Part shown: positions 16,684-30,219 of the stretch, piece by piece | Numbering within the stretch: the stretch's first letter is position 1 | Layout: every line of letters starts with the position of its first letter | From: Formosa sp. Hel1_33_131 | GTDB taxonomy: Bacteria > Bacteroidota > Bacteroidia > Flavobacteriales > Flavobacteriaceae | NCBI RefSeq assembly: GCF_001735745.1 | Contig: NZ_CP017260.1 | Span: 840,001 to 872,000 of the forward strand | Length of the DNA: 32,000 nucleotides | Direction of reading: 5' to 3' | Translations under genes and position numbers: made by a program | Notes under the pieces: model-generated | The model's database searches: none | The model's input: the letters and a program-made list of their open reading frames with translations, nothing else | What the model was told of the DNA's origin: nothing

Positions 16684-17988
16684 CTACTTCTTACGCATAT
16701 AGATTGTAATCGGCACGCCCTTAAAATCATACAAAGCTCTTAGTTTATTTTCTAAAAATCGTTTGTAAGGCTCCTTTACGTATTGTGGTAAATTACAGAA
16801 AAATGCAAATTGCGGCTGCGGCGTTGGCAGCTGCATAATGTATTTTATTTTCACAAATTTACCTTTCAATGCTGGTGGTGGATTGTTTTCGATAATAGGT
16901 AACAAATCATCATTCAGCACACTTGTTTTAAGACGCTTGGTACGGTTTTTATAGACTTCCAAAGCGGTTTCCATAGCTTTGTAAATACGCTGTTTTGAGA
17001 GCGCGGATATAAACACAATAGGCACATCTGTAAAAGGTTGTATTTGTTCTCGAATGTGTGTTTCAAATGCTTTGGTGGTTTTGGTATCTTTCTCAACTAA
17101 ATCCCATTTATTCACTAAAATTACAATTCCTTTATGGTTGCGTTGTGCGAGCCAAAAAATATTTTGAACTTGTCCATCAAACCCACGTTGGGCATCACAG
17201 ACCAATAGACATACATCCGCATGTTCAATGGCACGGACGGAGCGCATGACCGAATAAAATTCTAAATCTTCCTTCACCTTCGCTTTTCGACGAATTCCAG
17301 CCGTATCGACTAGGTTAAACTCAAACCCAAATCGGTTGTATTTTGTATCGATTGAATCACGAGTGGTTCCAGCAATATCGGTCACAATATAACGATCTTC
17401 ACCAATCAATGCATTGATAAAAGAAGATTTGCCCGCATTGGGACGTCCTACCACTGCAAAACGTGGTAAGGTGACTTCTTCTACTTCTTCTACTTCTGGC
17501 AAGGCTTTGACTAAGGCATCTAGCAAATCACCGGTACCACTTCCATTGATGCTAGCAATGGTAAAAAATTCTCCTAGTCCTAAGGCATAAAACTCAACTG
17601 CATCTTGCTCACGCATGGCGTTATCGACCTTATTGATGACTAAAAAAACTGGTTTTTTAACTTTTCTAAGCAATTTTGCAACATCTTCATCCATGCCAGT
17701 TACACCTGATTCTACATCGACCATAAAAATAATGGCATCTGCTTCTTCAATGGCTAACTCAACTTGTTTATCGATTTCGGCTTCAAATACATCGTCACTT
17801 CCAAGAACATATCCGCCCGTATCAATTAACGAAAATTCTTTCCCATTCCAATCACTCTTACCATAGTGACGGTCACGAGTGACACCACTTACGGCATCTA
17901 CAATGGCTTCTCGCCTTTGGATCAACCTATTAAAAAAGGTGGATTTCCCAACATTTGGACGTCCTACTATCGCTACAATATTGCTCAT
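16684..17988 (-). CDS. der: ribosome biogenesis GTPase Der (EngA)
   Basis: Two tandem G domains (GRPNVGKST and [10 protein letters not shown]-loops, each with DTGG/DTAG and NKVD/NKWD) plus a KH-like C-terminus. Start placed at the Met of [17 protein letters not shown]; the track start at 18009 adds 7 aa. Confidence 0.95.
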
Positions 17989-18104
17989 ATGCTTATAAAA
18001 TTGCTGCAAAAATAGGAAATATCCTTTTGGTAAGCTCTTTTTTATGGAAGTTTAAAAAATATATAAATACAATTTAATATCTTTCCAATTCCCTAAAATC
18101 CGTT

Positions 18105-18605
18105 ATGATGCAAATTAGTAACAAAATTGTCTTAAGACCGCGTTTTTCATTGGACCTCAACGCAGCAAAAAACCAAGTTTTAGAAGCGTTTGAAGAATCA
18201 AAAAAGAATCAAAATGCTATCAAAATAAACATCTTAGATGCCCATGTGTTTTTAAAAATTCATTCGGCAGAACAACACTTTTGGTCGCCCCAACTCCATT
18301 TAGAAGTTTTAGAAACCACCCAAACCTGCTGTACGGTCAAAGGTTTATTTGGCCCCAGCCCTACGGTTTGGACGCTGTTTATGTTTTTTCATTTTGTGAC
18401 GGGTAGTTTGTTTTTGGGCTTTGGAGTTTGGACGTATTCCAGCTGGTCATTGGGCACTCCTTTTATAGCTCCACTGCTTTTGATGTTTCTGATGGTGGTT
18501 GTGTGGATTTCCTTATACCTTAGCGGACGCCTCGGTAAACAAAAAGGACACACACAAATGCACGAATTACATGATTTTATGAGCACCGTTTTGAAAGCGT
18601 TATAA
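18105..18605 (+). CDS. hypothetical membrane protein (soluble N-terminal ~85 aa plus two C-terminal TM helices)
   Basis: ORF with two hydrophobic segments, WTLFMFFHFVTGSLFLGFGVW and FIAPLLLMFLMVVVWISLYL. No family recognised. Confidence 0.5.
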   Translation: MMQISNKIVLRPRFSLDLNAAKNQVLEAFEESKKNQNAIKINILDAHVFLKIHSAEQHFWSPQLHLEVLETTQTCCTVKGLFGPSPTVWTLFMFFHFVTGSLFLGFGVWTYSSWSLGTPFIAPLLLMFLMVVVWISLYLSGRLGKQKGHTQMHELHDFMSTVLKAL

Positions 18606-18625
18606 AAACCTTTATATTTGGCATT

Positions 18626-18705
18626 GATTTTGACCTCAAATCTAAATCTACATAACCAATTAAACTCTTAGTATAAGCTATTATTTATTGTAAATAACAT
18701 TGAAC
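18626..18705 (+). repeat. degenerate left-half copy (R0) of the island intergenic repeat
   Basis: GATTTTGA..AAACTCTTAGTATAAGCTAT..ACATTGAAC resembles the GATTTTGAAACTATTGTATAAGTTTATACATTGAAC of R4, with insertions. The similarity is weak. Confidence 0.3.
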
Positions 18706-18786
18706 TTTTGCCCGATGTCTTTCCTTTATTGGAGATAATCAGCAATTAACTTTCAATATAACCCGTTATATAGCACATTTAAACAA

Positions 18787-19428
18787 ATGACAACACAATT
18801 AGAAAACATTATAAGCTACATTGGAATTAGCTTGGGAGTACTTGGAGCAATCGGTGCATTGTTTTGGTTCATCAAAACAGTAACCTCTAAAAAAGTGAAA
18901 CTTTTTAATTTAGAAATTGAGAGAAATTTAGTTGATGAAGAAAACTATTCCGAAATCATTGACTCCATAAAAAAAGAGGGCAGCAAGAACATTAAACCTG
19001 GGGTTGAACAACTTGTTAAATACTATATACAAATTTCAGAGCAAACAAAAATTAGTTTTTGGTTTGGTATTATTTTTGCCTTTTTCGGATTCTCTATTTT
19101 ACTCATTATAATATTCTCTAATACATATATGAATCCCTCTAAAATTACTATTTTATTGATTTCTACTGCAATTATTGAAGGGGTTGCTATGTTGTTTTTT
19201 TCAAGGTCAAACAAAGCTCGAAAAGAAATGGGAACATTTTTTAGTAAGTTACGTAAAGACAGACAACAAGGTATTAGTAGGGAATTAGTAGAATCCATTG
19301 AGGGCTCAATACTTAAAGATACCTTAAAAATTCAACTCGCCTTATATTACTCGGGAATACAGAATGACACTTCTTCCATTAATGAAGCGATACAAAGTGC
19401 TATTAAAAAAACTTTAAAGAATAAATAA
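18787..19428 (+). CDS. 3-TM membrane protein; the C-terminal 2-TM module resembles TRADD-N-associated / SLATT-like conflict-system membrane domains (tentative)
   Basis: 213 aa. N-terminal TM helix, a charged linker, then YYIQISEQTKISFWFGIIFAFFGFSILLIIIF ... ILLISTAIIEGVAMLFFSRSNKARKEM. The pattern is recalled from that family and has not been searched. Confidence 0.55.
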   Translation: MTTQLENIISYIGISLGVLGAIGALFWFIKTVTSKKVKLFNLEIERNLVDEENYSEIIDSIKKEGSKNIKPGVEQLVKYYIQISEQTKISFWFGIIFAFFGFSILLIIIFSNTYMNPSKITILLISTAIIEGVAMLFFSRSNKARKEMGTFFSKLRKDRQQGISRELVESIEGSILKDTLKIQLALYYSGIQNDTSSINEAIQSAIKKTLKNK

Positions 19429-19440
19429 AATAGGAGTGAC

Positions 19441-19580
19441 TTTTTATAAGTACTGTCTTAAGAATGCAAATCGCTTAACTCATATTTTAGACCCCAAGTC
19501 GTAATCTTCACAAGCAATAGAACCGAACGAAAGTGATTTTTTATAGTTAAGGGGGCAATTACAAGTAGTGTGAATGCTGA
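19441..19580 (+). repeat. island intergenic repeat, copy R1 (near full length, diverged)
   Basis: Aligns to R4 at about 80 percent over ATTTTAGACCCC..AATCTTCA..AATAGAACCGAACGAAAGTGATT..AGTTAAGGGGGCA..ACAAGTAGTGTGAATGCTGA. Starts 13 nt after the stop at 19428 and ends 40 nt before the start at 19621. Confidence 0.75.
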
Positions 19581-19620
19581 TTTCTAATTTAGAAAAGTAA
19601 ATAGTAAAAATATAGCAAAC

Positions 19621-20163
19621 GTGAAAAAGGGATTAATTGTTTTTTTAATAGTGCCAGTGCTAATGGCTACCCAGTGTGAAGATGACATAGAATGCACTTC
19701 AGAAACACTTATAAAAACAAAACAAAACTTGCTTACTATTGAGAATTCACAAACTACTTATCAGGTTGGGGATGTACTGTGGATAAAATCCGATTTGGAT
19801 AGAAATATTAATTTCGACACTCCAAATGAAACTATTGACTTATTTGATTACAGCGAATTAATTTTCAAATTTAACTTTGACAGGATATCGATATATAATT
19901 CTGAAATGTATTTGTGTGTTAATGAAGATACGATTGAAATAGTAAAAGGCGAATTGTTGAATTGCAATCAATTTAGTTATGAAAGAAGTGATACAAATTT
20001 TCAATCAAATATTGGGATAAAACTTCTAGAGGCTGGCGAATATAGAATGAAAATCTCTGAAATCTCATCAAATGAACATTCCGACTGTAGTAAAGATGGT
20101 ATCGTAATACTGACTTCGTTCAGCAATAATGACAATGAATGGGTTACCTTTCTAGTGCAATAA
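19621..20163 (+). CDS. hypothetical secreted protein or lipoprotein
   Basis: GTG start. N-terminal signal-like MKKGLIVFLIVPVLMATQC. No family recognised. Confidence 0.5.
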   Translation: MKKGLIVFLIVPVLMATQCEDDIECTSETLIKTKQNLLTIENSQTTYQVGDVLWIKSDLDRNINFDTPNETIDLFDYSELIFKFNFDRISIYNSEMYLCVNEDTIEIVKGELLNCNQFSYERSDTNFQSNIGIKLLEAGEYRMKISEISSNEHSDCSKDGIVILTSFSNNDNEWVTFLVQ

Positions 20164-20199
20164 AAATAATTTTGAAAACAGAAAAACAAAATCAAACTT

Positions 20200-20742
20200 A
20201 TGAAATATTTAAAATACACCCTTGGAGTTTTAGCAATCTTGGTTATTGGGTTTTTACTTACAGGATTGATCAAAAATGAATTATCTTATAATTGCGAAAT
20301 AATGGTCGACAGGTCATTAACTGAATCCTGGGCTGTGAGTCAGGACGAAGGTAAAATGGCAGACTGGTTAGATGGATTTCAAAAAATTGAATATGTGAGC
20401 GGATCACCTGGAACTGTAGGTGCAGTATCAGATGTATATTTTACTAATGATGGACAGGAAATGACCATTCGAGAAACCATTACTGAAATCGTTCCAAACC
20501 AATCTGTATCAATGACGTTTACATCTGACTTTATGGATATGGATTACAAACTCACGATGAAGTCTATTAATGGAAAAACAAAAATAAGCACAAGCACAAC
20601 ATGCATTGGAAATGGAATGTTTTCAAAGTCCTTATTAGCTGTGATGGGAAATTCCATCAAAGATCAAGAAGAAACAAACCTTTCTAATCTTAAGAAAACT
20701 ATTGAAGAAAATTCAAAAAATTATTCACTTATTGAAAACTAG
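20200..20742 (+). CDS. SRPBCC (START/Bet v1-like) superfamily protein with N-terminal TM anchor
   Basis: 180 aa. TM segment LGVLAILVIGFLLTGLI followed by a C-terminal region resembling polyketide-cyclase/AHSA1-type SRPBCC proteins (ESWAVSQDEGKMADWL, VGAVSDVYF). From recollection. Confidence 0.6.
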   Translation: MKYLKYTLGVLAILVIGFLLTGLIKNELSYNCEIMVDRSLTESWAVSQDEGKMADWLDGFQKIEYVSGSPGTVGAVSDVYFTNDGQEMTIRETITEIVPNQSVSMTFTSDFMDMDYKLTMKSINGKTKISTSTTCIGNGMFSKSLLAVMGNSIKDQEETNLSNLKKTIEENSKNYSLIEN

Positions 20743-20952
20743 TTTCATCTAACTTAAGACGTATTTAGTTCTTTGAAAACGACAAAAAACAGTGGGCTAA
20801 TATTGATTTTTATGGTTTTTGGATGTAAATCCGAAAGGAGTTTAAATGGAAATTATTCCCGCGTCGCTGCATAAATCCTTTCGTGTGGCAACGTTATTAA
20901 AGTTATGTTATAAACTGGAAAAACAATATGAGTAGAAATTATCAATTCTATA

Positions 20953-21010
20953 AACCAGAAGATTATTTTACAGTTAAGGGGGCACTAGTATAAGCAAGGC
21001 ACTTATGCTA
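20953..21010 (+). repeat. island intergenic repeat, right-half copy (R2)
   Basis: AACCAGAAGATTATTTTACAGTTAAGGGGGCA matches the AACCGAACGAAAGTGATTTTTTATAGTTAAGGGGGCA of R1. A left-end-like CTTAAGAC..TTTGAAAAC lies at 20753-20790. Confidence 0.6.
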
Positions 21011-21106
21011 AAAGAGGAGGGGTATTGAGAAATTTCTGATTATATATAATGTAAAAAAAATCTATTTTCAATTAGCCTTTATTTAAAAACCGTTAAATTT
21101 GTGAAA

Positions 21107-21694
21107 ATGGACGTCAAGAATCTTTACATAATTGCTGGATGTAACGGAGCAGGAAAAACAACAGCTTCATACACTATACTCCCTGAAATAATTGAATGTA
21201 AGGAGTTTGTAAATGCCGATGAAATAGCGAAGGGACTCTCGCCGTTTCAACCAGACAAAGTGTCTTTTGAGGCTGGAAGAATAATGATTAACAGAATCAA
21301 TGAACTTATAAAAGAAAATCAAAGCTTTGCTTTTGAGACGACATTATCGACTAGAAGTTATAAGCACAAGGTTTTAAAAGCAAAAAAACAAGGGTACAAC
21401 ATTACATTATTGTTCTTTTGGTTAAACAATATAGAATTGGCAAAAGAACGTGTGAAAACAAGAGTATTGGAAGGAGGGCATAATATTCCCGAAAACGCAA
21501 TTGAAAGAAGATATTTTAAAGGAATATATAATTTATTTGATATATTCATTCCTATAGTTGATGGGGTATTAATTTTCGACAATTCTTTTGGAAGACACGA
21601 ATTGATTGCACAGAAATTTATAGAAGAAGACCTACTGGTTTTTGACAAAAATAAATTTAACAAACTAAAAGGTATCTATGACAGCAAAGGATAA
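21107..21694 (+). CDS. zeta-toxin-like P-loop kinase/ATPase (COG4185-type)
   Basis: Walker A GCNGAGKTT five residues after MDVKNLYIIA. Length and the ERVKTRVLEGGHNIPENAIERRY block are typical of zeta-like/AAA ATPases. The start could also be the GTG at 21101. Confidence 0.8.
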   Translation: MDVKNLYIIAGCNGAGKTTASYTILPEIIECKEFVNADEIAKGLSPFQPDKVSFEAGRIMINRINELIKENQSFAFETTLSTRSYKHKVLKAKKQGYNITLLFFWLNNIELAKERVKTRVLEGGHNIPENAIERRYFKGIYNLFDIFIPIVDGVLIFDNSFGRHELIAQKFIEEDLLVFDKNKFNKLKGIYDSKG

Positions 21695-21830
21695 ACAAAT
21701 AGAATTAAGAGACAACGTTTTAAAAGGACTTGAAAAAGTTTACGAAAAACTTCTTGAATTCAAAAAAGAAAAAAACAGTGAATTAGTAATTATGGAAGGG
21801 GATAAAATTGTGAAAATCAAGCCCAAATAA
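21678..21830 (+). CDS. 50-aa ORF overlapping the zeta-like gene 3' end; candidate cognate antitoxin or partner
   Basis: Hand-translated as MTAKDKQIELRDNVLKGLEKVYEKLLEFKKEKNSELVIMEGDKIVKIKPK. It is below the 60-aa track cutoff. The ATG lies 17 nt inside the toxin gene in another frame. No homology check was possible. Confidence 0.4.
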   Translation: MTAKDKQIELRDNVLKGLEKVYEKLLEFKKEKNSELVIMEGDKIVKIKPK

Positions 21831-21895
21831 TCACTATCTCTAACAACGGTAATCGTTGCACAAGTACTCAAAAGATAAAACTTAGCTAGTTTAAT

Positions 21896-22030
21896 AAACC
21901 CTATTTTGAAACTCTTGTAAAAGTTTATACATTGAACCAAGATTTAGACCCCCAAATCGCAATCTTCACAACTAATCGTTTAGTAAGGAGGGATGTTATT
22001 TCAAAAAGCAATAGACGCAAGTAGGGATAC
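21896..22030 (+). repeat. island intergenic repeat, copy R3 (left 70 nt near-identical to R4, right half rearranged or deleted)
   Basis: 21903-21971 matches 27074-27142 at 66 of 69 positions by manual alignment. The right part keeps only TAGTAAGGAGGGA and GCAATAGACGCAAGTAGGGATAC similarity. Confidence 0.75.
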
Positions 22031-22071
22031 TTGGCCAGTTGGTGGTGTTTTGTTGATCTTCTAAAAATAAG

Positions 22072-22878
22072 ATGTTGAAAAAAATAGTATTATTTAGTCT
22101 CGCATTGACAGTGCTCAACTCTTGTGGAGCTCGAAGAATATATACAAGTGCTAGTTATGGTTCTTTAAAATCCTATACAGAAAAACCTATTAACAACGGG
22201 GAGAAAGAAACAGCAACCTACATTTCGGGATCGTTTAGCAATCCTAAACACCCACAACACAATGAGGATGCTGATAAAGTAACTGCCGGAAATTTCTCTA
22301 TTTACAGAGCAACAACCGATAAACGATTGAATTATTACTATGGATTGGGAGGAGGATTCGGAAGGTATCAATTTAAAAGCGACTTAACTGACTCCGATAA
22401 TTCAACACGATATATTGATAAAAATGATGCATTAAATTTTTACAACATTAATTTAAAAACAGGAATTAACTTTACAAAAACTTGGGAACGGTTTGAATAT
22501 AGTATTATTGGTTTAGAATTTATTTACGTGAACGAATTTGGCCCTTACATTGATAAATTAAACGATTTACCTGAAATATCAGATGTAGTTGTACTAGGCA
22601 AGAAATCCATTTTTGCTTTTAATTTAAACACTGAAATTACGTTCAGAATAAATAAAAATAACAATATTGGGTATGGAATATTTTTTGGAAGTGTTTTGTT
22701 TTTAGATCGCCAAGAAACCCAAAATAAAAGCGCTTCCTACAATGGCTTTATTTTAAAATACAATTACAAAGATTTCACAATTAGTTTGATGAATGAACAT
22801 AGTGCTGGCTCGATAAATTCAACTCAATTTGGACTTACATATAAACTATTTAGTAAATCGAAAGTGATTGAAGAGTAA
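22072..22878 (+). CDS. hypothetical lipoprotein, possibly beta-barrel-like
   Basis: Lipobox-like LTVLNSC after a signal peptide. Alternating aromatic/Gly-rich segments (YYYGLGGGFGRYQF, FGLTYKLF). No family recognised. Confidence 0.55.
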   Translation: MLKKIVLFSLALTVLNSCGARRIYTSASYGSLKSYTEKPINNGEKETATYISGSFSNPKHPQHNEDADKVTAGNFSIYRATTDKRLNYYYGLGGGFGRYQFKSDLTDSDNSTRYIDKNDALNFYNINLKTGINFTKTWERFEYSIIGLEFIYVNEFGPYIDKLNDLPEISDVVVLGKKSIFAFNLNTEITFRINKNNNIGYGIFFGSVLFLDRQETQNKSASYNGFILKYNYKDFTISLMNEHSAGSINSTQFGLTYKLFSKSKVIEE

Positions 22879-22955
22879 AGAAGAACTTGATGATTAGAGG
22901 AATGCCAGTATCAAAACATATAAAATAAATAGAAAATCAATAAAACCCAAATCAC

Positions 22956-23804
22956 ATGAAAAAATCAATCAACACATCAGTAGTGCTTTTGCTAATGTTC
23001 AGCTTCACCATTGGACACGCACAATCTTGGTTCGGCAAAAAAGTTGTTGGCAATGGAAATGTCACCACAAAAACGGTTTCGACTGGAGATTATGATCACA
23101 TCAAAAGTGTAGGTTCTGCAGACATCCATCTCATAAAAGGAACAGAAGGTTCAATCGCAGTCACAACAGATGAAAATCTACACGCGTACCTCGATATTAA
23201 AGTAGAAAACAATACTTTAATTATAAAAATAAAAGACAACATTAACCTAAAAACTAAAAAAGGGTTTCACATTAGCGTTCCCTTTGAAAAGCTTTCAAAA
23301 GTGACCTTAACAGGGTCTGGAGACATGGACTCAAAAGACCCCATTACAACCGATGAATTCAAAGTATCAATGAGTGGATCAGGCGACGTTGTTTTAGATG
23401 TGAATGCCTCTAAAGTTAAAACAGAGATCACAGGGTCTGGAACTATTTCGCTCTCTGGCACCTACGGCAACCTCAAGCTGGATTTAACAGGCAGTGGCAA
23501 TTTTGTTGGAACTGGAATGACCTCACAAAGCACCGAAGTTAAGATTGCAGGCTCTGGAAATGCGAAGATTTCAGGGACCACCTCAACGTTAGAAATCGAA
23601 GTGATCGGTAGTGGAAGCTTTAAAGGCTTGGAGTTGGGTTCTAATGACACTGACGTCAAAGTTGCAGGATCCGGACAGGCAAAAGTGGTTGCGAATGAAT
23701 CTTTAAAAGCGAGCGTTAACGGCTCTGGCACGATTGTTTATAAAGGCAATCCAGAAAATGTAAACAGTAAAACAAATGGTTCTGGAAAAATAAAAAGGCA
23801 TTAG
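22956..23804 (+). CDS. DUF2807 / head-GIN-domain protein (putative beta-helical surface protein)
   Basis: Signal peptide ending GHAQ, then nine periodic GSG(D/T/N/S/Q/K) repeats about 20 aa apart (TGSGDM, SGSGDV, TGSGTI, TGSGNF, AGSGNA, IGSGSF, AGSGQA, NGSGTI, NGSGKI). Confidence 0.8.
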   Translation: MKKSINTSVVLLLMFSFTIGHAQSWFGKKVVGNGNVTTKTVSTGDYDHIKSVGSADIHLIKGTEGSIAVTTDENLHAYLDIKVENNTLIIKIKDNINLKTKKGFHISVPFEKLSKVTLTGSGDMDSKDPITTDEFKVSMSGSGDVVLDVNASKVKTEITGSGTISLSGTYGNLKLDLTGSGNFVGTGMTSQSTEVKIAGSGNAKISGTTSTLEIEVIGSGSFKGLELGSNDTDVKVAGSGQAKVVANESLKASVNGSGTIVYKGNPENVNSKTNGSGKIKRH

Positions 23805-24550
23805 GATTACTAACTTAGTTAAAAGAAAAATGGGTGATGAAAAACTGAGTAATGGAATATCGTTTTAAATTAAGATCTAAAAACAGAACAGACACAAAAT
23901 ATACATAGCCAAAACACACAAAGTAAAATAGCTGGAGTACTACAGTTTGGGAGTATTTTACACTCGTTCTCAGCCCTAAAAACAAAACATTCATTATGAA
24001 CTACAAACATTTCTATATCATGGATGATTTAAAGTTAAATAGTAATAGTTTTGACAATGAAGACAAAATAGTAAACAAAATTATTTTCCCAAAAAGAAAA
24101 ACTTGTCATAAAACGGCGTTTTTTTATTGGCAATGATCCTGTTTTCACTCTCGTTTGTTACCCCTAAAAACATTCGAGGACAAAACTATAACTAATTGAC
24201 AGTCATACCTAAATCATTTTTAAAAAGGCCAAGAAATGGAAGCTTGAATACTGTTTAATAGCAACTTATTCCGTAAACCCCTCTTTAACTGGTCTTTATA
24301 TTTTGTTTAAACATTTTAACTATTTGTTAATTTATTGATTGTCAGGTTTTTAATTTGGTTAATTTTTTTATTATAAAATATTAATTACCTACCTACCAGG
24401 CACTTAACCTTTTTAAGTAGTTGGAATATTTATAGTTTTAGGTATTTGTTCTGAAATTTCGAGTAAACTTCAATATTTTACTATATATTTAACTAATTAT
24501 GAGTCCTATATAAGAAATCACCCCATTGTAAACGCCCTAAATTTTAAATT

Positions 24551-27043
24551 ATGAAACCTACCTCTATTCTTGTTTTTTTTGCAACAATTTTATTTACCAC
24601 TAACTTATTTTGCCAAACTACATATAACTCCCAGTATATAGTTAATATGGAGAATGATCTTGATCTTGGCATAAAATATGACTTTACCACCACCAACACC
24701 CTTCAGCAATCATTCCGTTTGAATATGGATGATGTTAATGCGAATGAGGCTAGAATATCACATTTGTTCTTATATACCTATTTTTGGCCTGGTTCTGGTG
24801 TAGTGGTTACATTAAATTTTTATGAAGGAGATATAGGGAACCTTGGTCCTCTTATTCATACCCAAGATCTTATTAATGAAACATTAGACGTAAGAATAGG
24901 TTTTGTTTCTCCAGAAGGAAGTAATACGGTGCCAGGAGTATATCCTTTAACTCAAAATATTACATTGAAAACAAACAAAAGCTATGTTGTGGAATTTGTA
25001 TTGCCAAATAATGGTATTAACGACTATGGTATATATACAACTGAAACTAATCTAGGAACTTGTAATGTTGGTAATAGAGATTTATGGTTTAAATTATTCG
25101 GGGAAGTAGGATCTGCTACAAATACTACAATTAATATTACCAAAGAAAGTGACTTGGGATATCAACTTGATACATATTCCAATTTTTTTGCTGATAAATT
25201 ACTGAATAAATACGAACCAGAAAATTTATGGATAAAGACTCCATTAGCTGGTACCCTTACCTATATTTCATCAGATGATTCTATTGTTAAACCAACTTTA
25301 AATAGTCAACAAGTTGGCATAAAAGATAATATTGAGTTAATGGGGCTTTCTGTTGGAGAAGCAATCATTTATGTTTTGCATCAAAATGATACTATAAGCC
25401 ACTTTAATGTAAAAGTAACAGATAAGAAAATTATTAACACATCCTATCAATACTTTAAATATCCAGGTGAATCTAATCATAGTTTATTATCCGTATTTGG
25501 AGGAGTTAGTGAAAAAATTAGTGAGATTTATGAATCCGTAAATGTTCATATAGAATTTACAGATCAAGGGGTTATTGAATATGAATGGGATTTAAATGGT
25601 GATGGCTATAGTTGGACACCAACTGGCATAGAAACAAACACAACGATGGATCAGACTCCAAACGCCACTAACTTTTTCACAAACTTTGTACTCTTGAGGC
25701 AAAATAAAAATGATTCTTATGTTGGAGGGAGTAATGGAGGAGGAACATCTAGAGGACTTGGTAAAAAGGATGCTCCGCCTAGGTATGGACTTGTTACCAT
25801 ACATTTATTTGATAATGAGTCAAACTTAGGCAATACATTGGCTCATGAGATAGGGCACAATTTTGGTTTATCCCATTATTCTCGTTATAATAGCAATAGT
25901 ATTCCTGTTCCTTATGATAATTTTAATCTCATGAAAACTTCGCGTACTTATCAATTAATTTATGGTTTTCAATGGGATGTAATACACAAAACTATAAACT
26001 ATAGAGAAAGCCTAGGAGAAACTTATGATACAAGAGCCAATGCTGTTTTTAATAATTTCAATGATCAAACTTTTGTCTTCGGTGAGCCAAATACTGATGC
26101 TCAAATTAACGCAAGTACAAACTCTGATTCTGAAATTACATACAAGTTAACTTCTAGTGACACAAATGTAATAAGTATTAATAATAACGGACAAATAACT
26201 GTTTTAGGAGAAGGGGAAGCTGAAGTTACTGCATATGTATATGCCACAAATAATTATTTGGCCCATTCAGAAAGCATCATCATTTCGATAGGTGGTCCAA
26301 CTTATTGTTCATCACAAGGGAATAATCCCACAGAAGAATACATCTATAGAGTTCAACTAAATACAATAGATAATGCTTCAGGTACACCAAGTGGATATAC
26401 TGATTATACTGCAATTTCAACTGATTTACAACAAGGTGAGCAGTATGTAATTACTATTACACCACGTTGGACTGGTTATGTATATCATGAAGCCTATGCC
26501 GCTTGGATTGACTACAATAATGACGGAGATTTTGAGGACACAGGAGAATTAGTATTCATGAAATACCCAACAGCAAGCAACATTGTTAATGGAAAATTTA
26601 CAATTCCTTACTATGCGCATCTAGGTTCAACAAGAATTCGGGTTTCAATGAAATACGGATGGATACCAAATTCTTGTGAATCTTTTACTTATGGAGAAGT
26701 TGAAGACTATACAGTAAACATCATTCCGCAACAGCATTTTTGGTTTTGGTCTCGATCAAATGAAAATATTGATATCTCAAAAGAAGATGACAAAACAATA
26801 GAAGGTGACCCTTCAGATGGTATTGTTGTATATCCAAATCCAGCAGTAGATCGTTTAATAGTTAAATTTGATGGAGCGAGAATGAAGGATTATAGAATTA
26901 CGAATTTAAAGGGACAAACAGTGATGTCTGGAACTTTAGATAGTAGTCATAAGATTGATGTGAGTAAATTATCAAGTGAGCTTTATATCATTGAATTTGC
27001 AGTTGATGAAAAGATAATAACTCAAAAATTTATTAAGCTATAG
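24551..27043 (+). CDS. secreted multidomain metzincin metalloprotease with Big_2-like, GEVED and T9SS C-terminal sorting domains
   Basis: Signal peptide. HEIGHNFGLSH (HExxHxxGxxH) at 25844-25876. Two Ig-like segments (LTYISSDDSIV.., ITYKLTSSDTNVISINNNGQITVLGEGEAEVTAYV). YGEVEDYTVNI GEVED motif. C-terminal VVYPNPAVDRLIV...IITQKFIKL Por/T9SS sorting domain. Confidence 0.85.
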   Translation: MKPTSILVFFATILFTTNLFCQTTYNSQYIVNMENDLDLGIKYDFTTTNTLQQSFRLNMDDVNANEARISHLFLYTYFWPGSGVVVTLNFYEGDIGNLGPLIHTQDLINETLDVRIGFVSPEGSNTVPGVYPLTQNITLKTNKSYVVEFVLPNNGINDYGIYTTETNLGTCNVGNRDLWFKLFGEVGSATNTTINITKESDLGYQLDTYSNFFADKLLNKYEPENLWIKTPLAGTLTYISSDDSIVKPTLNSQQVGIKDNIELMGLSVGEAIIYVLHQNDTISHFNVKVTDKKIINTSYQYFKYPGESNHSLLSVFGGVSEKISEIYESVNVHIEFTDQGVIEYEWDLNGDGYSWTPTGIETNTTMDQTPNATNFFTNFVLLRQNKNDSYVGGSNGGGTSRGLGKKDAPPRYGLVTIHLFDNESNLGNTLAHEIGHNFGLSHYSRYNSNSIPVPYDNFNLMKTSRTYQLIYGFQWDVIHKTINYRESLGETYDTRANAVFNNFNDQTFVFGEPNTDAQINASTNSDSEITYKLTSSDTNVISINNNGQITVLGEGEAEVTAYVYATNNYLAHSESIIISIGGPTYCSSQGNNPTEEYIYRVQLNTIDNASGTPSGYTDYTAISTDLQQGEQYVITITPRWTGYVYHEAYAAWIDYNNDGDFEDTGELVFMKYPTASNIVNGKFTIPYYAHLGSTRIRVSMKYGWIPNSCESFTYGEVEDYTVNIIPQQHFWFWSRSNENIDISKEDDKTIEGDPSDGIVVYPNPAVDRLIVKFDGARMKDYRITNLKGQTVMSGTLDSSHKIDVSKLSSELYIIEFAVDEKIITQKFIKL

Positions 27044-27073
27044 TGTAACTAATCATATGATTTCAAGATCGCG

Positions 27074-27213
27074 ATTTTGAAACTATTGTATAAGTTTATA
27101 CATTGAACCAAGATTTAGACCCCCAAATCGCAATCTTCATAATCAATAGAATCGAACGAAAGCGATTATTTTAGAGTTAAGGGTGCTGGTACAAACGTAG
27201 TGTTTGCACTGAA
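27074..27213 (+). repeat. island intergenic repeat, copy R4 (best-preserved full copy)
   Basis: Contains all blocks shared with R1, R2, R3 and R5: ATTTTGAAACT..TGTATAAGTTTATACATTGAACC..TTTAGACCCCCAAATCGCAATCTTCA..AATAGAATCGAACGAAAGCGATT..AGTTAAGGGTGC..ACAAACGTAGTGTTTGCACTGA. Ends 14 nt before the ATG at 27228. Confidence 0.8.
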
Positions 27214-27227
27214 ATGAGCTGTAGATA

Positions 27228-27650
27228 ATGACCGACGAAGATTTAAATAAATTCATTGAAAAAGTTGAACAAAATTGTTCGGAATCTGAAGCATATTTTA
27301 ATTCTGAATTCAACACTGACTTTGGAATTGCTAAAGGAAATAAATTCGGACTATTACTTTACGCTAAAGAATTTTTAAAAGCGGCTAGAGAAATTGACAA
27401 AAGGAAATTTGAACAGGGAGATATGGAAGTGTACAATCCTGACTTTAAATGGATAAAGGGAATTGACAGTAATCCATTTAGGTATATAAAAATCACCAAG
27501 AAGCTGCTTAAAGAAATTAATCCTGAGAACCAATTAGAAAAGGAAAATTGGAAAAACAAACTTTATAGTATTGGATGTGGAACAGCTGTTGTTTTTGCTC
27601 TAATTTTAACATTTGTGGGGTTGGTTACTTTTTTGAAATGGATGTTTTAA
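27228..27650 (+). CDS. hypothetical tail-anchored membrane protein
   Basis: 140 aa. Charged soluble N-terminal region and a single C-terminal TM segment GCGTAVVFALILTFVGLVTFL. No family recognised. Confidence 0.5.
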   Translation: MTDEDLNKFIEKVEQNCSESEAYFNSEFNTDFGIAKGNKFGLLLYAKEFLKAAREIDKRKFEQGDMEVYNPDFKWIKGIDSNPFRYIKITKKLLKEINPENQLEKENWKNKLYSIGCGTAVVFALILTFVGLVTFLKWMF

Positions 27651-27703
27651 AATAAAATTTTCTAAATTGTATGTTTAAAACACGTAACTAATTAAATAAA
27701 AAA

Positions 27704-28564
27704 ATGAAGAACTTAATCATAATATTTACAATACTAGCCTTTGGAAATGTTTACCCCCAAACTGATGAAAATGGAAATCCTGTTTTTAATTCAATCATTA
27801 CAAACGAACAAGCATTTGAGAAATTTAATTTAATTTCTAATTATTACACGCTTGAAAACAATATTACAAACAAGAATTCATCAGTTTATATTTCTAAAAA
27901 ACCTTCTCTTAACGAAATTGAAAAATCTGCTACGGAATTACCTTCTGACTTTTTTATTATAACTAAAAATCAACAAATATCTAATATGATTTTAATAGTT
28001 AACGAACCACAAATGACTTTTGTTGTTATAAATATGACGTCTAACAAACAATCTGAATACGATTTTAGACTTAGAGGCGATATAACAGAAAACCGTGCGA
28101 ATGAAATCATTAAAGCTAAATATGATCCTAATGCTAAAATCAAAAAAGGGGAACTGTATTTCAATAATAAAAAATTTAAAATCATCCCCAACGAAGATCT
28201 TAACAAAGCAGTTTTGTCATTAATAAATAGAAAGGGAATAAGTGAAACTAATCCTTCAGAAATAAAAATTCCATTTCAGGAAGAATTGAAAAATATAATA
28301 TTAATTGAAACAAAAAAAGGAGGGCAACTTGATTACTTTACTGAAATAAAAGGAAAAGAGAATGACGCAATACAAATTAAACCCAGAGTATTCAGTACAA
28401 AATTAGGAATTGCTCTTTATAAATGGGGGCGTGCAACATTTGAAAATGGCGTAAATACATTGGAGGATTCTTATAAAATTTATGAAGAATTCAAAGGGCG
28501 GGATTTAAACCAAAAAGAAAAAGATTACATCAAGCTTGGGTTTAATAAAGAACTGGAGAAATAA
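27704..28564 (+). CDS. hypothetical secreted protein
   Basis: 286 aa. Signal peptide MKNLIIIFTILAFGNVYPQ. Lys/Asn/Glu-rich. No family recognised. Confidence 0.55.
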   Translation: MKNLIIIFTILAFGNVYPQTDENGNPVFNSIITNEQAFEKFNLISNYYTLENNITNKNSSVYISKKPSLNEIEKSATELPSDFFIITKNQQISNMILIVNEPQMTFVVINMTSNKQSEYDFRLRGDITENRANEIIKAKYDPNAKIKKGELYFNNKKFKIIPNEDLNKAVLSLINRKGISETNPSEIKIPFQEELKNIILIETKKGGQLDYFTEIKGKENDAIQIKPRVFSTKLGIALYKWGRATFENGVNTLEDSYKIYEEFKGRDLNQKEKDYIKLGFNKELEK

Positions 28565-28570
28565 CTGATA

Positions 28571-28609
28571 TCTTAAGACCCATTTTGAAACTACTTTAAA
28601 AATTTGTGT
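28571..28609 (+). repeat. island intergenic repeat, left-end-only copy (R5)
   Basis: TCTTAAGACCCATTTTGAAACTACTTTAAAAATTTGTGT matches the AAACCCTATTTTGAAACTCTTGTAAAAGTTTATAC of R3. Similarity stops where the TA promoter/operator region begins. Confidence 0.5.
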
Positions 28610-28610
28610 T

Positions 28611-28643
28611 TTACGTAATTAATATTTAATTTTACACGTGTAA
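28611..28643 (+). promoter_or_regulatory. two palindromes sharing TTAC/GTAA half-sites; candidate autoregulatory operator of the DUF6364-PIN module
   Basis: TTACGTAA (28611-28618) is a perfect 8-bp palindrome and TTACACGTGTAA (28632-28643) is a perfect 12-bp palindrome. They lie 10-42 nt upstream of the ATG at 28653. Confidence 0.4.
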
Positions 28644-28652
28644 CACTATGAT

Positions 28653-28898
28653 ATGGACACCAAATTAACGCTTAACGTAGATAAAACCATCATTGAAAAG
28701 GCAAAAGTATATGCTAAATCTCATAAGGTGAGTTTGTCTCATTTGATAGAATCTTATTTAGCTGCAATAGTTTCGAAAAGCAGTAAGAGAATTGAAATCA
28801 CACCCCTAGTAGAAAGTCTGAGTGGGGTGATTGATTTAGAACCAAATTTTGATTTCAAAGAAGATTACACAAATTTCTTAATTGAAAAATACAAATGA
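28653..28898 (+). CDS. DUF6364-family antitoxin (type II TA, PIN partner)
   Basis: 81 aa. The N-terminal TLNVDKTIIEKAKVYAKSHKVSLSHLIESYL pattern is recalled from the Bacteroidota DUF6364 family. A 4-nt ATGA overlap links it to the downstream PIN gene. Confidence 0.75.
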   Translation: MDTKLTLNVDKTIIEKAKVYAKSHKVSLSHLIESYLAAIVSKSSKRIEITPLVESLSGVIDLEPNFDFKEDYTNFLIEKYK

Positions 28899-29311
28899 GT
28901 AAATTATTTATTGACACAAATATTGTCTTGGATTTGCTTTCAAAACGAACACCATTTTACGAGAGTGCTGCTCAGATATTCTCGTTTGCAGATAACCATA
29001 AACTGAAGTTATCCGTGAGCGCTCTTACCTTTGCAAATACAAACTACATTTTATCCAAACTTAAGTCCGTAAAGGAAGCACGAGAAATCTTAAGAAGATT
29101 TAAGGTCCTTGTTAAAGTCTTGCCTCTTAATGATAAAATTGTTGATCTTGCCTTAAATGACGAGGCATTCAAGGATTTTGAAGACGGGCTTCAGTATTAC
29201 ACGGCTCTAGAGGTTAAACAAAATATTATCATTACACGAGATTTAAAAGGCTTTAAAAATGCTAAAATCCCAGTGATGACTGCAGAGGAATATTTGATTT
29301 CTATCACATAG
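28895..29311 (+). CDS. vapC: PIN-domain ribonuclease toxin (VapC-like)
   Basis: 138 aa. N-terminal LFIDTNIVLD acidic residue, mid DFEDGLQ and C-terminal IITRD acidic positions, consistent with the PIN catalytic set. Confidence 0.85.
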   Translation: MSKLFIDTNIVLDLLSKRTPFYESAAQIFSFADNHKLKLSVSALTFANTNYILSKLKSVKEAREILRRFKVLVKVLPLNDKIVDLALNDEAFKDFEDGLQYYTALEVKQNIIITRDLKGFKNAKIPVMTAEEYLISIT

Positions 29312-29337
29312 CTCGCTAGTGGGTAAAAATCTGTTTT

Positions 29338-30219
29338 TTAAGAATTATTATACCCAAAACGCTTCAGTTGGTTTTGGTTGGAACGCCAGTTTTTATTCAC
29401 TTTCACATACAATTCTAAGTGCACTTGTTTGCCAAAAAATTTCTCTAAATCTTTTCTAGCCTCCACGCCTACACGTTTAAGAGCGATTCCCTTATGACCA
29501 ATCACAATCCCTTTTTGTGTTTCGCGCTCTACCATAATCACAGAACGCATGCGGATGATGTCTTCCTCTTCAAAAAACTCTTCGGTATCCACCTCCACCG
29601 CATAAGGAATCTCTTTCTTATAATGGATCAAAATCTTTTCACGGATTTTTTCATTCACAAAAAACCGTTCGGGTTTGTCCGTCAATTGATCTTTCGGATA
29701 ATAGGCGGGTGATTCTGGCAATAACTCCAAAATACGGTCAAACACATTTTTTACATTAAAACCTTCCAGTGCTGAGATCGCAATAAATTCTGCATTCGGA
29801 ACTTTCTGTTGCCATAGCTGCGCTTGGGCTTCCAATTGTTCTTGGTTAGAAGTATCAATTTTATTTAACAGCAATAAAACGGGTTTCTTAGAAGCCGTAA
29901 TTCTATTAAAAAAAGCTTCATCCTTTAACTCTCTTTCGCCAATTTCAACCATATAAATTAAAATATCGGCATCTTCAAAAGCAGACTTCACAAAGTCCAT
30001 CATTGAACTTTGCAATTCATAGGCAGGCTTAATAATCCCAGGCGTATCCGAAAGAATCACCTGAAAATCATCGCCATTCACAATCCCTAAAATTCGGTGG
30101 CGCGTTGTTTGCGCCTTCGATGTAATAATGGATAATTTTTCGCCTACAAAGGCATTCATCAAGGTTGATTTTCCGACGTTGGGATTTCCGATGATATTAA
30201 CAAAACCTGCTTTGTGCAT
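29338..30219 (-). CDS. era: GTPase Era
   Basis: GNPNVGKST P-loop, DTPG, NKID, and a C-terminal KH domain (VIMVERETQKGIVIGHKGIALKRVG). Confidence 0.95.
   Translation of the reverse strand: MHKAGFVNIIGNPNVGKSTLMNAFVGEKLSIITSKAQTTRHRILGIVNGDDFQVILSDTPGIIKPAYELQSSMMDFVKSAFEDADILIYMVEIGERELKDEAFFNRITASKKPVLLLLNKIDTSNQEQLEAQAQLWQQKVPNAEFIAISALEGFNVKNVFDRILELLPESPAYYPKDQLTDKPERFFVNEKIREKILIHYKKEIPYAVEVDTEEFFEEEDIIRMRSVIMVERETQKGIVIGHKGIALKRVGVEARKDLEKFFGKQVHLELYVKVNKNWRSNQNQLKRFGYNNS

What the first reader, a model, noticed from the sequence alone, without database searches (positions are those of the whole stretch)
19441..27213. Co-oriented ~140-bp intergenic repeat family divides the island into cassette-like units
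Three near-full copies exist: R1 19441-19580, R3 21896-22030 and R4 27074-27213. R3 and R4 match at 66 of 69 aligned positions (21903-21971 vs 27074-27142) although they are noncoding and 5 kb apart. R1 matches R4 at roughly 80 percent across the right ~100 nt. Partial copies are R2 (20953-21010), R5 (28571-28609) and a degenerate R0 (18626-18705). All copies are in the same orientation as the genes. Each starts 10-70 nt after a stop codon and ends 14-90 nt before the next start, and I saw none in the housekeeping flanks. They delimit these units: 18787-19428, 19621-20742, 21107-21830 (TA), 22072-27043, 27228-28564 and 28653-29311 (TA). There are three competing explanations: (a) attC-like recombination sites of an integrase-less cassette array (CALIN or sedentary-integron remnant), (b) a portable terminator-plus-promoter junction module, or (c) a REP/MITE-like element that happens to be clustered here. 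TA modules inside cassette arrays are an established feature of chromosomal integrons.
Basis: seen in the sequence. Interest (0 to 1): 0.85.

Follow-up and report, generated by a model that had tools for sequence, protein, structure and literature searches.

The report
Repeat-bounded gene cassettes, not integron sites
The intergenic repeats are real and do mark places where marine Formosa strains gain, lose and swap small gene units, but they are leftover copies of a neighbouring gene's tail plus its downstream spacer, not integron attC recombination sites.

Summary
R1, R3 and R4, and the partial copies R0, R2 and R5, are real, co-oriented and confined to an island of about 10.7 kb between der plus a conserved 166-aa membrane-protein gene ("memb") and era.

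The repeat has three parts. Block A copies the last 15 or so codons of memb. Block B is a roughly 30-nt core that is 85-94% conserved. Block C is a variable spacer.

About 60 related metagenome and genome loci show:
- an empty site in one relative (memb, 28 nt, era);
- at least 10 different island versions;
- one strain pair that differs by exactly unit 4 plus one repeat copy;
- units in a different order in different lineages.

So the units behave like cassettes. The attC reading fails: the copies form no hairpin, their sequence rather than their structure is conserved, their right edges vary, and no recombinase gene appears in any sampled locus. The REP/MITE and terminator-promoter readings also lack support.

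My best reading (about 0.5) is that DNA inserted repeatedly at memb's 3' end. Each insertion pushed the old gene tail and its neighbouring unit downstream. General homologous recombination between the stranded copies then shuffles units. The main rival (about 0.25) is an unlinked site-specific recombinase acting on the B core. I rate this moderately interesting: a new variant of known displacement or accretion islands.

The parts
16684..18009 (-). der/engA, the conserved left flank of the hotspot
   Evidence: Pfam MMR_HSR1 x2 plus KH_dom-like. The protein is 100% identical in L001 and L011.
18105..18605 (+). Conserved 166-aa membrane-protein gene ("memb"). Its last 15 or so codons are the source of repeat block A.
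   Evidence: 740 homologues, those carrying a source name coming from Flavobacteriaceae genera; no Pfam hit. The gene lies next to der in every locus. The C-terminal tail differs between lineages.
18572..18786 (+). R0: the memb 3' end plus a diverged B0/C0 spacer. It stays attached to unit 1 in other genomes.
   Evidence: nhmmer match at 18572-18660. The same R0-type copy precedes unit 1 in L014. In L007 it is a pseudo-end with no memb gene upstream.
18787..19428 (+). Unit 1: a 213-aa protein with a TRADD-N-associated two-transmembrane domain
   Evidence: Pfam PF20712. Homologues of 76-79% identity lie in different array positions in L007 and L014.
19431..19620 (+). R1: degenerate A, B core at 19483-19515, and C with a hairpin
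   Evidence: nhmmer E = 1.9e-37.
19621..20742 (+). Unit 2: two 180-aa genes, the second SRPBCC/Polyketide_cyc2
   Evidence: In L011/L014 this unit is replaced by a 5.8-kb phosphate-uptake unit.
20900..21106 (+). R2: a decayed copy. The clear part is C-right plus the hairpin, 20953-21030.
   Evidence: L011/L014 carry a full A+B+C copy at this junction that is 99% identical from 20961 rightwards.
21101..21830 (+). Unit 3: a zeta-toxin-like P-loop kinase plus an overlapping 50-aa ORF
   Evidence: Pfam Zeta_toxin 2.6e-9. That this is a toxin-antitoxin pair is plausible but was not tested.
21887..22072 (+). R3: A + B (core at 21941-21971) + a C' variant
   Evidence: nhmmer E = 4.6e-44. The point where the window and the L003-type strains diverge lies just after ...AATCGCAATCTT.
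22072..27043 (+). Unit 4: lipoprotein (22072-22878), DUF2807 (22956-23804), 746 nt with no convincing ORF, and a T9SS-secreted GEVED metalloprotease (24551-27043)
   Evidence: Pfam. The whole unit is present in L019 and absent in the L003 type. DUF2807 is the only gene in the L001 island.
27058..27231 (+). R4: a full copy, A + B (core at 27112-27142) + C + hairpin. Block A still reads YDFKIAILKLLYKFIH-stop in frame.
   Evidence: nhmmer E = 2.6e-47. For comparison, the L001 gene end reads NDFMSTILKLFKKFVH-stop.
27228..28564 (+). Unit 5: two genes of unknown function (140 and 286 aa)
   Evidence: Always found together with units 4 and 6.
28566..28605 (+). R5: block A only, cut off after AAAAATTT. 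It travels with unit 6.
   Evidence: The same truncated A precedes DUF6364 in L051, and a degenerate one does so in L052, each with a different left neighbour.
28653..29311 (+). Unit 6: a DUF6364 antitoxin-like gene plus a PIN-domain gene
   Evidence: Pfam 9.4e-26 and 7.3e-15.
29312..29337 (.). Remnant of the native memb-era spacer (AAAATCTGTTTTT)
   Evidence: It matches the 28-nt spacer of the empty site in L059.
29338..30219 (-). era, the conserved right flank. All island versions diverge at its stop codon.
   Evidence: Pfam MMR_HSR1 plus KH_2.

Best explanation
The gap between memb and era is a strain-variable insertion hotspot in a clade of marine Flavobacteriaceae related to Formosa. One relative has only 28 nt in this gap.

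The 170-190-nt "repeat" is not a mobile element and not a hairpin site. It is a copy of the last 15 or so codons of memb (block A) plus the spacer that follows it (blocks B and C).

Inferred mechanism:
1. Incoming DNA recombines using memb, or an existing repeat copy, as its stretch of homology.
2. It inserts next to that copy and pushes the resident gene tail, together with the unit to its right, downstream. This builds a co-oriented string of pseudo-3' ends between units.
3. The stranded copies then serve as portable homology for general (RecA-type) recombination and gene conversion. This deletes, re-inserts, replaces and reorders units and moves them between lineages.

Shown here: the origin of the repeat, the empty site, the indel of one unit plus one repeat copy, the reordering, and transfer between lineages. 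Inferred: that the recombination is homologous or homology-anchored rather than catalysed by a dedicated recombinase.
For: **Origin of the repeat**
- In L001 the stop codon of memb lies inside block A, and A+B+C fills the whole spacer up to the next gene.
- Pseudo-copies align to the last 30-75 nt of true memb alleles.
- R4 keeps the reading frame and the stop codon.
- In L052 a ParE toxin-antitoxin unit is flanked by a 78-nt duplication of the memb 3' end at 87% identity. The displaced copy is the one followed by B and C.

**Empty site.** L059 has der, memb, 28 nt, then era.

**Repeat copies travel with the unit on their right**
- The R0-type copy goes with unit 1 in the window and L014. In L007 it is a pseudo-end lying behind a phosphate-uptake unit.
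- The truncated A goes with unit 6 in the window, L051 and L052, with three different left neighbours.

**Recombination at copies**
- The single L003 copy equals the left part of L019 R3 joined to the right part of L019 R4'. The two strains differ by unit 4 plus one repeat copy.
- L019 R3 and R4' are 100% identical over 88 nt, including a patch where the orthologous window R3 differs. This looks like gene conversion.

**Ordinary homologous exchange at the locus**
- L011 imported the phosphate unit from an L014-like donor, with the left crossover inside the unit 1 gene.
- The unit's proteins are 99-100% identical between these lineages, while the flanking proteins are only about 79% identical.

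**No recombinase and no mobile-element source**
- No recombinase or integrase family appears among the called genes of the loci fetched with gene calls (L002-L006, L017-L060).
- The core is absent from IMG/VR, and the full R4 copy has no match in phage or plasmid collections.

**Precedent.** Serial displacement that leaves orphaned 3' fragments is described for T6SS and Rhs arrays, with homology-facilitated illegitimate recombination proposed as the mechanism (PMC5361080).
Against: - The B core is far better conserved (85-94%) than its surroundings. It also occurs inside unrelated repeat modules (L010, L012) and at a second locus (L016). This would fit a protein-recognised site.
- Homology-anchored illegitimate insertion is rare wherever it has been measured (PMC5361080), yet at least 15 different units occur in a narrow clade.
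- Many pseudo-ends share changes not seen in any sampled memb allele (ATGATTTCAARA instead of ATGATTTTATGA). They may therefore be copies of one pseudo-end rather than independently displaced tails.
- No copy sits at the era end of any array.
- Several junctions carry no repeat at all.
- I have no evidence on competence or on recA dependence.
Confidence: 0.5

Rival explanations
1. The repeat, specifically the B core, is the attachment site of a site-specific recombinase encoded elsewhere in the genome. The units are integrase-less cassettes that are excised as circles and integrated in trans. The logic would be that of an integron, but with a linear, non-hairpin site.
For: - Conservation peaks sharply on the roughly 30-nt core.
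- The core is shared by otherwise unrelated repeat modules that also sit between small co-oriented genes in L010 and L012.
- A repeat-flanked unit lies at a second locus, between pirin and trpS in L016.
- One strain pair shows a clean indel of one unit plus one copy.
- There are many different units in a narrow clade.
- The left edges of several copies cluster near AATTACATGATTT.
Against: - No recombinase gene lies within 10 kb of the gene used for the look-up in any sampled locus.
- The core has no convincing inverted arms; GATTT/AAATC is only 5 bp and is lost in R1.
- Several junctions carry only block A (R5, L051) or no copy at all.
- The right edges of the copies vary.
- There is no copy at the era end.
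- Patchy mosaic differences between copies look like gene conversion.
- The core is absent from viral, phage and plasmid collections.
Confidence: 0.25
2. The copies are a functional RNA or regulatory leader (a 5' UTR element, a processing site or a small RNA) that has been duplicated because each unit needs it.
For: - RNAalifold proposes a helix formed by CCCC/GGGG plus AAUCGC/GCGAUU.
- All seven one-sided changes in that helix keep a G-U pair on the + strand.
- Every type-C copy has a hairpin with a different stem sequence just upstream of the next start codon.
Against: - There are no compensatory changes, and the score equals every shuffle.
- The consensus folding energy is only -4.9 kcal/mol.
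- The window and five related loci (L007, L010, L012, L015, L016) have no Rfam match of any significance; the single hit at E up to 1 is a far sub-threshold one in L010 away from the repeat.
- No terminator or -7 box lies in the copies.
- This reading does not explain why block A is a pseudo-3' end of memb, or why the copies are confined to this locus.
Confidence: 0.08
3. The copies are attC sites of an integrase-less integron cassette array (a CALIN or a sedentary integron remnant).
For: - The copies are co-oriented and intergenic, the units are small, and toxin-antitoxin modules are present.
- R1 contains GCTTAAC ... GTTAAGG (R''/R'-like), 7 bp arms 64 nt apart.
- Units vary between strains at the repeats.
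Against: - Single-strand folds are no better than shuffles on either strand: -4.5 to -12.9 kcal/mol for about 145 nt, z from -1.2 to +2.1.
- There is no L''/L' pairing.
- R3 and R4 have TTGAAC in place of R'', and the C' copies have GTTATTT.
- Sequence is conserved, not structure.
- Block A is a gene fragment.
- No intI was found in any sampled locus.
- As of 2022, complete integrons were known in only one member of the Bacteroidetes, Salinibacter ruber M1 (PMC9024848).
Confidence: 0.02
4. The copies are a REP or MITE-like dispersed repeat that happens to cluster here.
For: Copies of the core occur in three other contexts: L010, L012 and L016.
Against: - The core has one hit in 185,579 representative genomes.
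- 7 of the 10 metagenome contigs are this same locus.
- There are no copies in the 10-kb flanks of 20 related loci (L017-L036).
- All copies have one orientation.
- There are no terminal inverted repeats.
- The copies include a gene fragment.
Confidence: 0.03

Closest known systems
C-terminal / 3'-end displacement arrays: Rhs orphan C-terminal modules and Vibrio cholerae T6SS effector-immunity arrays (Jackson 2009; Kirchberger 2017, PMC5361080)
   Same: - A conserved upstream gene has a tail that differs between strains.
- Downstream lies a co-oriented string of modules, each preceded by an orphaned fragment of that gene's 3' region.
- No integrase is present.
- The proposed mechanism is a homologous anchor plus an illegitimate join, followed by homologous recombination between the fragments.
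   Different: - The anchor gene here is a small housekeeping-like membrane protein, not a toxin.
- Cargo is miscellaneous: toxin-antitoxin pairs, a secreted protease, phosphate uptake, Fic, hydrolases.
- The stranded unit also includes about 130 nt of non-coding spacer with a highly conserved 30-nt core.
Accretion islands at the 3' end of a tRNA or protein gene: tycheposon islands in Prochlorococcus (bioRxiv 10.1101/2020.12.28.424599), additive flexible genomic islands of Alteromonas (PMC3698932), and SCC composite islands at rlmH (the last from my own knowledge)
   Same: - The target is a conserved gene's 3' end.
- Tandem elements are separated by partial direct copies of that 3' end.
- Newer insertions push older ones inward.
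- Degenerate remnants are present.
- Relatives have an empty site.
   Different: - Those islands contain integrase-bearing elements and short att cores (about 15-40 nt).
- Here no integrase was found in any version.
- The repeats here are 170-190 nt with variable right edges, and some junctions lack them.
Chromosomal integron cassette arrays / CALIN (IntegronFinder, PMC4889954 and PMC9024848)
   Same: Small co-oriented units separated by a recurring intergenic element; toxin-antitoxin modules; unit-level variation between strains.
   Different: - The element is not an imperfect palindrome, and its sequence, not its structure, is conserved.
- It is derived from a neighbouring gene.
- Its boundaries are not at a G/TT core.
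- There is no intI.

Membership tests
integron attC / CALIN | The site is an imperfect palindrome whose single strand folds into a hairpin with paired R''/R' and L''/L' boxes | tested here: not met
   DNA folds of R1, R2, R3 and R4 on both strands give z from -1.23 to +2.07 against shuffles. The inverted-repeat search finds only a 7-bp CTTAACT/AGTTAAG pair in R1 and nothing comparable in R3 or R4.
integron attC / CALIN | R'' = RYYYAAC and R' = GTTRRRY at the two ends, with the cassette boundary inside R' | tested here: not met
   Only R1 fits loosely (GCTTAAC ... GTTAAGG). R3 and R4 have TTGAAC, and the C' copies have GTTATTT. Unit-specific sequence starts after A, after B, after C' or after C plus the hairpin in different copies.
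integron attC / CALIN | Sites differ in sequence but share a structure | tested here: not met
   The opposite holds: core identity is 85-94% across 11 copies with no supported structure.
integron attC / CALIN | An integron integrase (intI) next to the array or elsewhere in the genome | tested here: inconclusive
   No recombinase family appears among the called genes of the loci fetched with gene calls (L002-L006, L017-L060), which extend up to 10 kb on each side of the gene used for the look-up. A whole genome could not be scanned.
integron attC / CALIN | A significant score with the IntegronFinder attC covariance model | not testable with these tools
   The model is not in Rfam. An Rfam scan of the window gave no hit at E up to 1.
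REP / MITE-like dispersed repeat | Many copies dispersed over the genome, in both orientations | tested here: not met
   1 hit in 185,579 representative genomes. 10 metagenome contigs, 7 of them at this locus. No copy in the flanks of 20 related loci (L017-L036). All copies are co-oriented.
REP / MITE-like dispersed repeat | Terminal inverted repeats or a palindromic unit | tested here: not met
att-site accretion island (integrative elements at a gene's 3' end) | Direct repeats that are partial copies of the target gene's 3' end flank the inserted units | tested here: met
att-site accretion island (integrative elements at a gene's 3' end) | An empty target site in related genomes | tested here: met
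   L059: memb stop codon, 28 nt, era stop codon.
att-site accretion island (integrative elements at a gene's 3' end) | At least some elements in the island carry an integrase | tested here: not met
   None in the 10 or more island versions sampled.
att-site accretion island (integrative elements at a gene's 3' end) | A short, fixed crossover core shared by all junctions | tested here: inconclusive
   The informative breakpoints fall within the roughly 60-88-nt stretch that is identical between copies, so they cannot be placed precisely. Some junctions lack B, or lack any copy.
3'-end (C-terminal) displacement array | A conserved upstream gene whose extreme 3' end differs between strains | tested here: met
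   memb tails read ...VLKAL...ILKLFKKFVH...VLKVF...VLKTVGQ and ...VIKTN in the window, L001, L027/L051, L052 and L059.
3'-end (C-terminal) displacement array | Each downstream module is preceded by an orphaned, co-oriented fragment of that 3' end, and the fragment stays with the module to its right | tested here: met
   Unit 1 with the R0-type copy. Unit 6 with the truncated A in three lineages. This does not hold at every junction.
3'-end (C-terminal) displacement array | The main gene is a polymorphic toxin and the modules are toxin tips or immunity genes | tested here: not met
   memb has no Pfam domain. Cargo is heterogeneous.
portable terminator-promoter junction | An intrinsic terminator and a Bacteroidetes promoter (-33 TTG, -7 TAnnTTTG) inside the repeat | tested here: not met
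   No terminator-like site in any copy. No TAnnTTTG in R1, R3 or R4. These are motif-level tests only.

The most novel reading that the evidence does not exclude
The roughly 30-nt B core (GATTTAGACCCCCAAATCGCAATCTTCA) is the recombination site of an unlinked, so far unidentified recombinase. That enzyme would excise and integrate integrase-less gene cassettes at linear, non-hairpin sites. This would give marine Flavobacteriia an integron-like gene-capture system at the memb-era gap and at a few other loci, in a phylum where true integrons are almost unknown.
Probability: 0.2. Interest if true: 0.8.

Novelty: new variant of a known kind. Interest (0 to 1): 0.5.

Why it matters
Formosa and its relatives are abundant degraders of algal-bloom material, and their populations differ by small sets of genes. 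This locus gives a concrete view, resolved to the sequence, of how such differences arise.

A 28-nt gap between two converging core genes has become an array of up to 12 genes. Unit-by-unit gain, loss, reordering and transfer between lineages are all visible in co-occurring strains, with no integrase in sight.

If general recombination on stranded gene-tail copies is enough to run a cassette-like array, then integron-like population behaviour does not need integron machinery. If instead the conserved core turns out to be a recombinase site, this would be a new cassette system.

There is also a practical lesson. Co-oriented intergenic repeats next to toxin-antitoxin modules should not be read as attC sites without a structure test.

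Tried and rejected
- **Rfam.** Scans of the window and of five related loci found nothing significant.
- **tRNA or tmRNA target.** None is present.
- **attC.** Rejected on folding, lack of a palindrome and boundary behaviour.
- **Terminator plus promoter.** Consensus scans and a TAnnTTTG search found nothing inside the copies.
- **RNA helix between B and C.** It is geometrically possible, but there are no compensatory changes and the score equals all shuffles.
- **Phage, plasmid or viral attP.** The core has no match in IMG/VR, and the full R4 copy has no match in INPHARED phages or PLSDB plasmids.
- **Defence island.** PADLOC gave only weak hits.
- **"The repeat is the native memb-DUF2807 spacer."** I held this idea until the empty site in L059 showed that even DUF2807 and blocks B and C are insertions.
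- **Fixed crossover point.** I tried to locate one from haplotype comparisons. Every informative breakpoint falls inside sequence that is identical between copies, so it cannot be resolved.
- **Left edges of pseudo-ends.** I compared them to separate random joins from a fixed site. They cluster, but the copies are related by descent, so the result is not decisive.

Full report
**Setting.** The window comes from a member of the Flavobacteriaceae. One gene has a T9SS sorting domain, and the closest named relative is an uncultured Formosa MAG.

- on the left, der/engA (16684-18009, - strand) and a conserved 166-aa membrane-protein gene, called "memb" here (18105-18605, + strand);
- on the right, era (29338-30219, - strand).

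G+C falls from about 40% in the flanks to about 30% inside the region.

- R3 and R4 differ at 3 of 69 positions over 21903-21971 and 27074-27142.
- A 28-nt core is identical in both. Shuffles of the window gave 0 matches.
- Blocks shared by R1/R2/R4 and by R3/R4/R5 are likewise far beyond chance.
- A profile built from four copies finds only R0, R1, R3 and R4 in the 32 kb. It finds nothing in the roughly 10-kb core flanks of 20 related loci (L017-L036).
- Independent assemblies reproduce the junctions. L039 covers 21745-29494 at 99.99% and L019 covers 18850-27137 at 99.7%.

**Anatomy of the repeat.** It is modular.
- Block A: ...ATGATTTCAnnA....ATTTTGAAACTnTTnnAAAAGTTTnTACATTGAAC.
- Block B: GATTTAGACCCCCAAATCGCAATCTTCA.
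- Block C: either type C (...GAAAGCGATTATTTTAnAGTTAAGGGGGC followed by a short hairpin) or a diverged type C'.
- R4 is A+B+C, R3 is A+B+C', and R1 is degenerate A plus B plus C. R2 is a decayed copy with a clear right end of C. R5 is block A only. R0 is a diverged A0+B0+C0.
- Across 11 distinct copies, identity peaks at 85-94% on B and falls to 40-60% within 40 nt on either side.

**Where the repeat comes from.** In the Formosa MAG (L001) the gap contains only memb, one repeat copy, a DUF2807 gene and era.
- In L001 block A is the real 3' end of memb. The stop codon is the TGA inside CATTGAAC.
- R0 in the window likewise starts inside memb.
- Pseudo-copies align to the last 30-75 nt of true memb alleles.
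- R4 still reads YDFKIAILKLLYKFIH-stop in frame. The L001 gene end reads NDFMSTILKLFKKFVH-stop.
- memb is a core gene: it has 740 homologues, those carrying a source name coming from Flavobacteriaceae genera.
- A relative with 70% memb identity (L059) has the empty site: memb stop, 28 nt, era stop. Part of that spacer (AAAATCTGTTTTT) survives at 29312-29337.

So the whole island, including blocks B and C, is inserted material.

**Cassette-like behaviour is real.** About 60 loci were recovered by a pattern scan and by exact-protein look-ups. They show at least ten versions of the gap:

| Version | Content between memb and era |
|---|---|
| L059 | empty (28 nt) |
| L001 type | DUF2807 only |
| L027 type | a 134-aa gene plus an AlbA_2/HATPase gene |
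| L054 | Fic |
| L003 type | units 1-3 plus three other genes |
| L019 | units 1-4 plus those three genes |
| window | units 1-6 |
| L011/L014 | unit 1, a 5.8-kb phosphate-uptake unit on the opposite strand, a full repeat, unit 3 |
| L007 | phosphate unit, R0-type pseudo-end, unit 1, repeat, lipoprotein + DUF2807, repeat, epimerase |
| L051 and L052 | further arrays |

Key comparisons:
- The single copy in L003 equals the left part of L019 R3 joined to the right part of L019 R4'. The two strains differ by exactly unit 4 (5 kb) plus one repeat copy.
- The window and the L003 type diverge inside R3, just after AATCGCAATCTT.
- The phosphate unit's proteins are 99-100% identical between two lineages whose flanking proteins are only about 79% identical. 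The left crossover of that import lies inside the unit 1 gene.

**Copies travel with the unit on their right.**
- The R0-type copy precedes unit 1 both when it is the live end of memb (window, L014) and when it is a pseudo-end stranded behind the phosphate unit, with no memb gene upstream (L007).
- A block A cut at AAAARTTTG precedes the DUF6364-PIN unit in the window and L051. A degenerate one precedes it in L052. The three have three different left neighbours.
- In L052 a ParE toxin-antitoxin unit sits between the live memb end and a 78-nt duplicate of it (87% identical). The duplicate is the copy that carries B and C.

This is the signature of insertion next to the gene's tail, with the previous tail and its neighbour displaced downstream.

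**Why it is not attC.**
- Single-strand DNA folds of R1-R4 on both strands are no better than shuffles: -4.5 to -12.9 kcal/mol, z from -1.2 to +2.1.
- The only R''/R'-like pair is a 7-bp CTTAACT/AGTTAAG in R1, with an unpaired 64-nt interior.
- R3 and R4 have TTGAAC at that position, and the C' copies have GTTATTT.
- Sequence is conserved, not structure.
- Unit-specific sequence begins after A, after B, after C' or after C plus the hairpin, depending on the copy.
- No recombinase family appears among the called genes of any locus.
- As of 2022, complete integrons were known in only one member of the Bacteroidetes (PMC9024848).
- The IntegronFinder model itself could not be run.

**Why it is not REP/MITE and not a terminator-promoter cassette.**
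- The core pattern occurs once in 185,579 representative genomes.
- It occurs in 10 metagenome contigs, seven of them at this locus.
- No terminator-like hairpin with a T-run and no Bacteroidetes -7 box lies in any copy.
- A possible RNA helix between B and C has only one-sided G-U changes, no compensatory change, and a score equal to every shuffle.
- The window and five related loci (L007, L010, L012, L015, L016) have no Rfam match of any significance; the single hit at E up to 1 is a far sub-threshold one in L010 away from the repeat.

**Mechanism.** The following points are shown:
- the repeat is a gene tail plus spacer;
- an empty site exists;
- units are gained or lost together with one copy;
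- units are reordered and move between lineages;
- ordinary homologous crossovers occur in the flanking genes.

L019 R3 and R4' are identical over 88 nt, including a patch where the orthologous window R3 differs. That is what gene conversion between copies looks like.

From this I infer two steps (confidence 0.5):
1. The array grows by insertion anchored on memb or on an existing copy, which displaces older tails.
2. General homologous recombination between the stranded copies then shuffles the units.

This is the logic proposed for Rhs and T6SS "displacement" arrays (PMC5361080). It also resembles accretion at tRNA genes in tycheposon islands, but here there is no integrase.

**What this does not explain.**
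- The sharp conservation of the B core.
- Its presence inside unrelated repeat modules between small genes in L010 and L012.
- A repeat-flanked pirin unit at a second locus, L016.
- The absence of a copy at the era end of every array.
- Junctions with no copy at all.
- How a new gene first becomes attached to a copy.

These points keep alive the rival reading that the core is the site of an unlinked recombinase (0.25). That would be the most novel outcome. The core is absent from IMG/VR, and the full R4 copy has no match in phage or plasmid collections.

**Verdict.** The cassette-like reading is correct at the level of behaviour. The attC, REP/MITE and terminator-promoter interpretations are not supported. 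The feature is best filed as a new variant of displacement or accretion islands. Interest is moderate (0.5).

Noticed in passing
window 14842-16681: LemA plus two TPM-domain genes are absent in many near-identical strains (L002, L017, L018, L020, L021, L029, L030, L032, L034). In those strains der is followed directly by the MerR gene. This is a second presence/absence polymorphism, on the other side of der.
   Followed up: no
window 23805-24550: 746 nt with no convincing ORF lie between DUF2807 and the T9SS metalloprotease. L001 and L007 diverge from the window right after the DUF2807 stop codon. The protease and this spacer were therefore joined to DUF2807 without a repeat copy.
   Followed up: partly
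window 27065-27077 vs 27125-27137: In R4 (and the R4' copies of L019 and L022, which share this left part), AAGATCGCGATTT in block A is a 12-of-13 inverted copy of the B core, 47 nt upstream of it. It is absent from the copies at other junctions.
   Followed up: no
window 19555-19577, 20986-21010, 27190-27207; also L001, L007 and L015 copies: Each type-C copy carries a 5-9-bp hairpin just after GTTAAGGGGGC, upstream of the next start codon. The stem sequence differs from copy to copy and no T-run follows. I did not test this formally for covariation.
   Followed up: partly
L010 1-7218 (Ga0115569_10007938); L012 2269-2313: This is an unrelated flavobacterial contig. Small co-oriented genes are each preceded by other repeats of about 200 nt (1852-2049, 3775-3972, 4936-5133, and part of one at 5759-5826). 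All of these end in ...TAGCRCGGCGTT just before the gene-specific sequence begins. There are also two copies of a 250-nt module that contains the B core. There is no Rfam match. It may be a separate cassette-like array.
   Followed up: partly
L016 2889-2985 and 4600-4670: A second locus: acyltransferase, a B0-type copy, a 209-aa gene, pirin, an A+B copy (including the memb pseudo-end), then trpS. So a repeat-flanked unit also exists outside the der-era gap.
   Followed up: partly
L052 12553-12580 and 14739-14766: Junctions in this more distant array carry a different short repeat, GCAGCAGGGGAATCATATTTTAACC, next to CAAAGTC/GACTTTG hairpins.
   Followed up: no
window 18105-18605 and homologues P0008, P0030, P0047 and others: NCBI records name homologues of this 166-aa membrane protein "GTP-binding protein", although it has no Pfam domain. 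The name was probably carried over from the neighbouring der gene.
   Followed up: no
L038-L046 (strains with the window's island version): The metalloprotease gene is called as 830 aa in some assemblies and 798 aa in others. A 46-aa ORF in the upstream spacer is called on opposite strands in different assemblies. Many contigs end inside R3 or R4, consistent with co-existing island versions breaking the assemblies.
   Followed up: no
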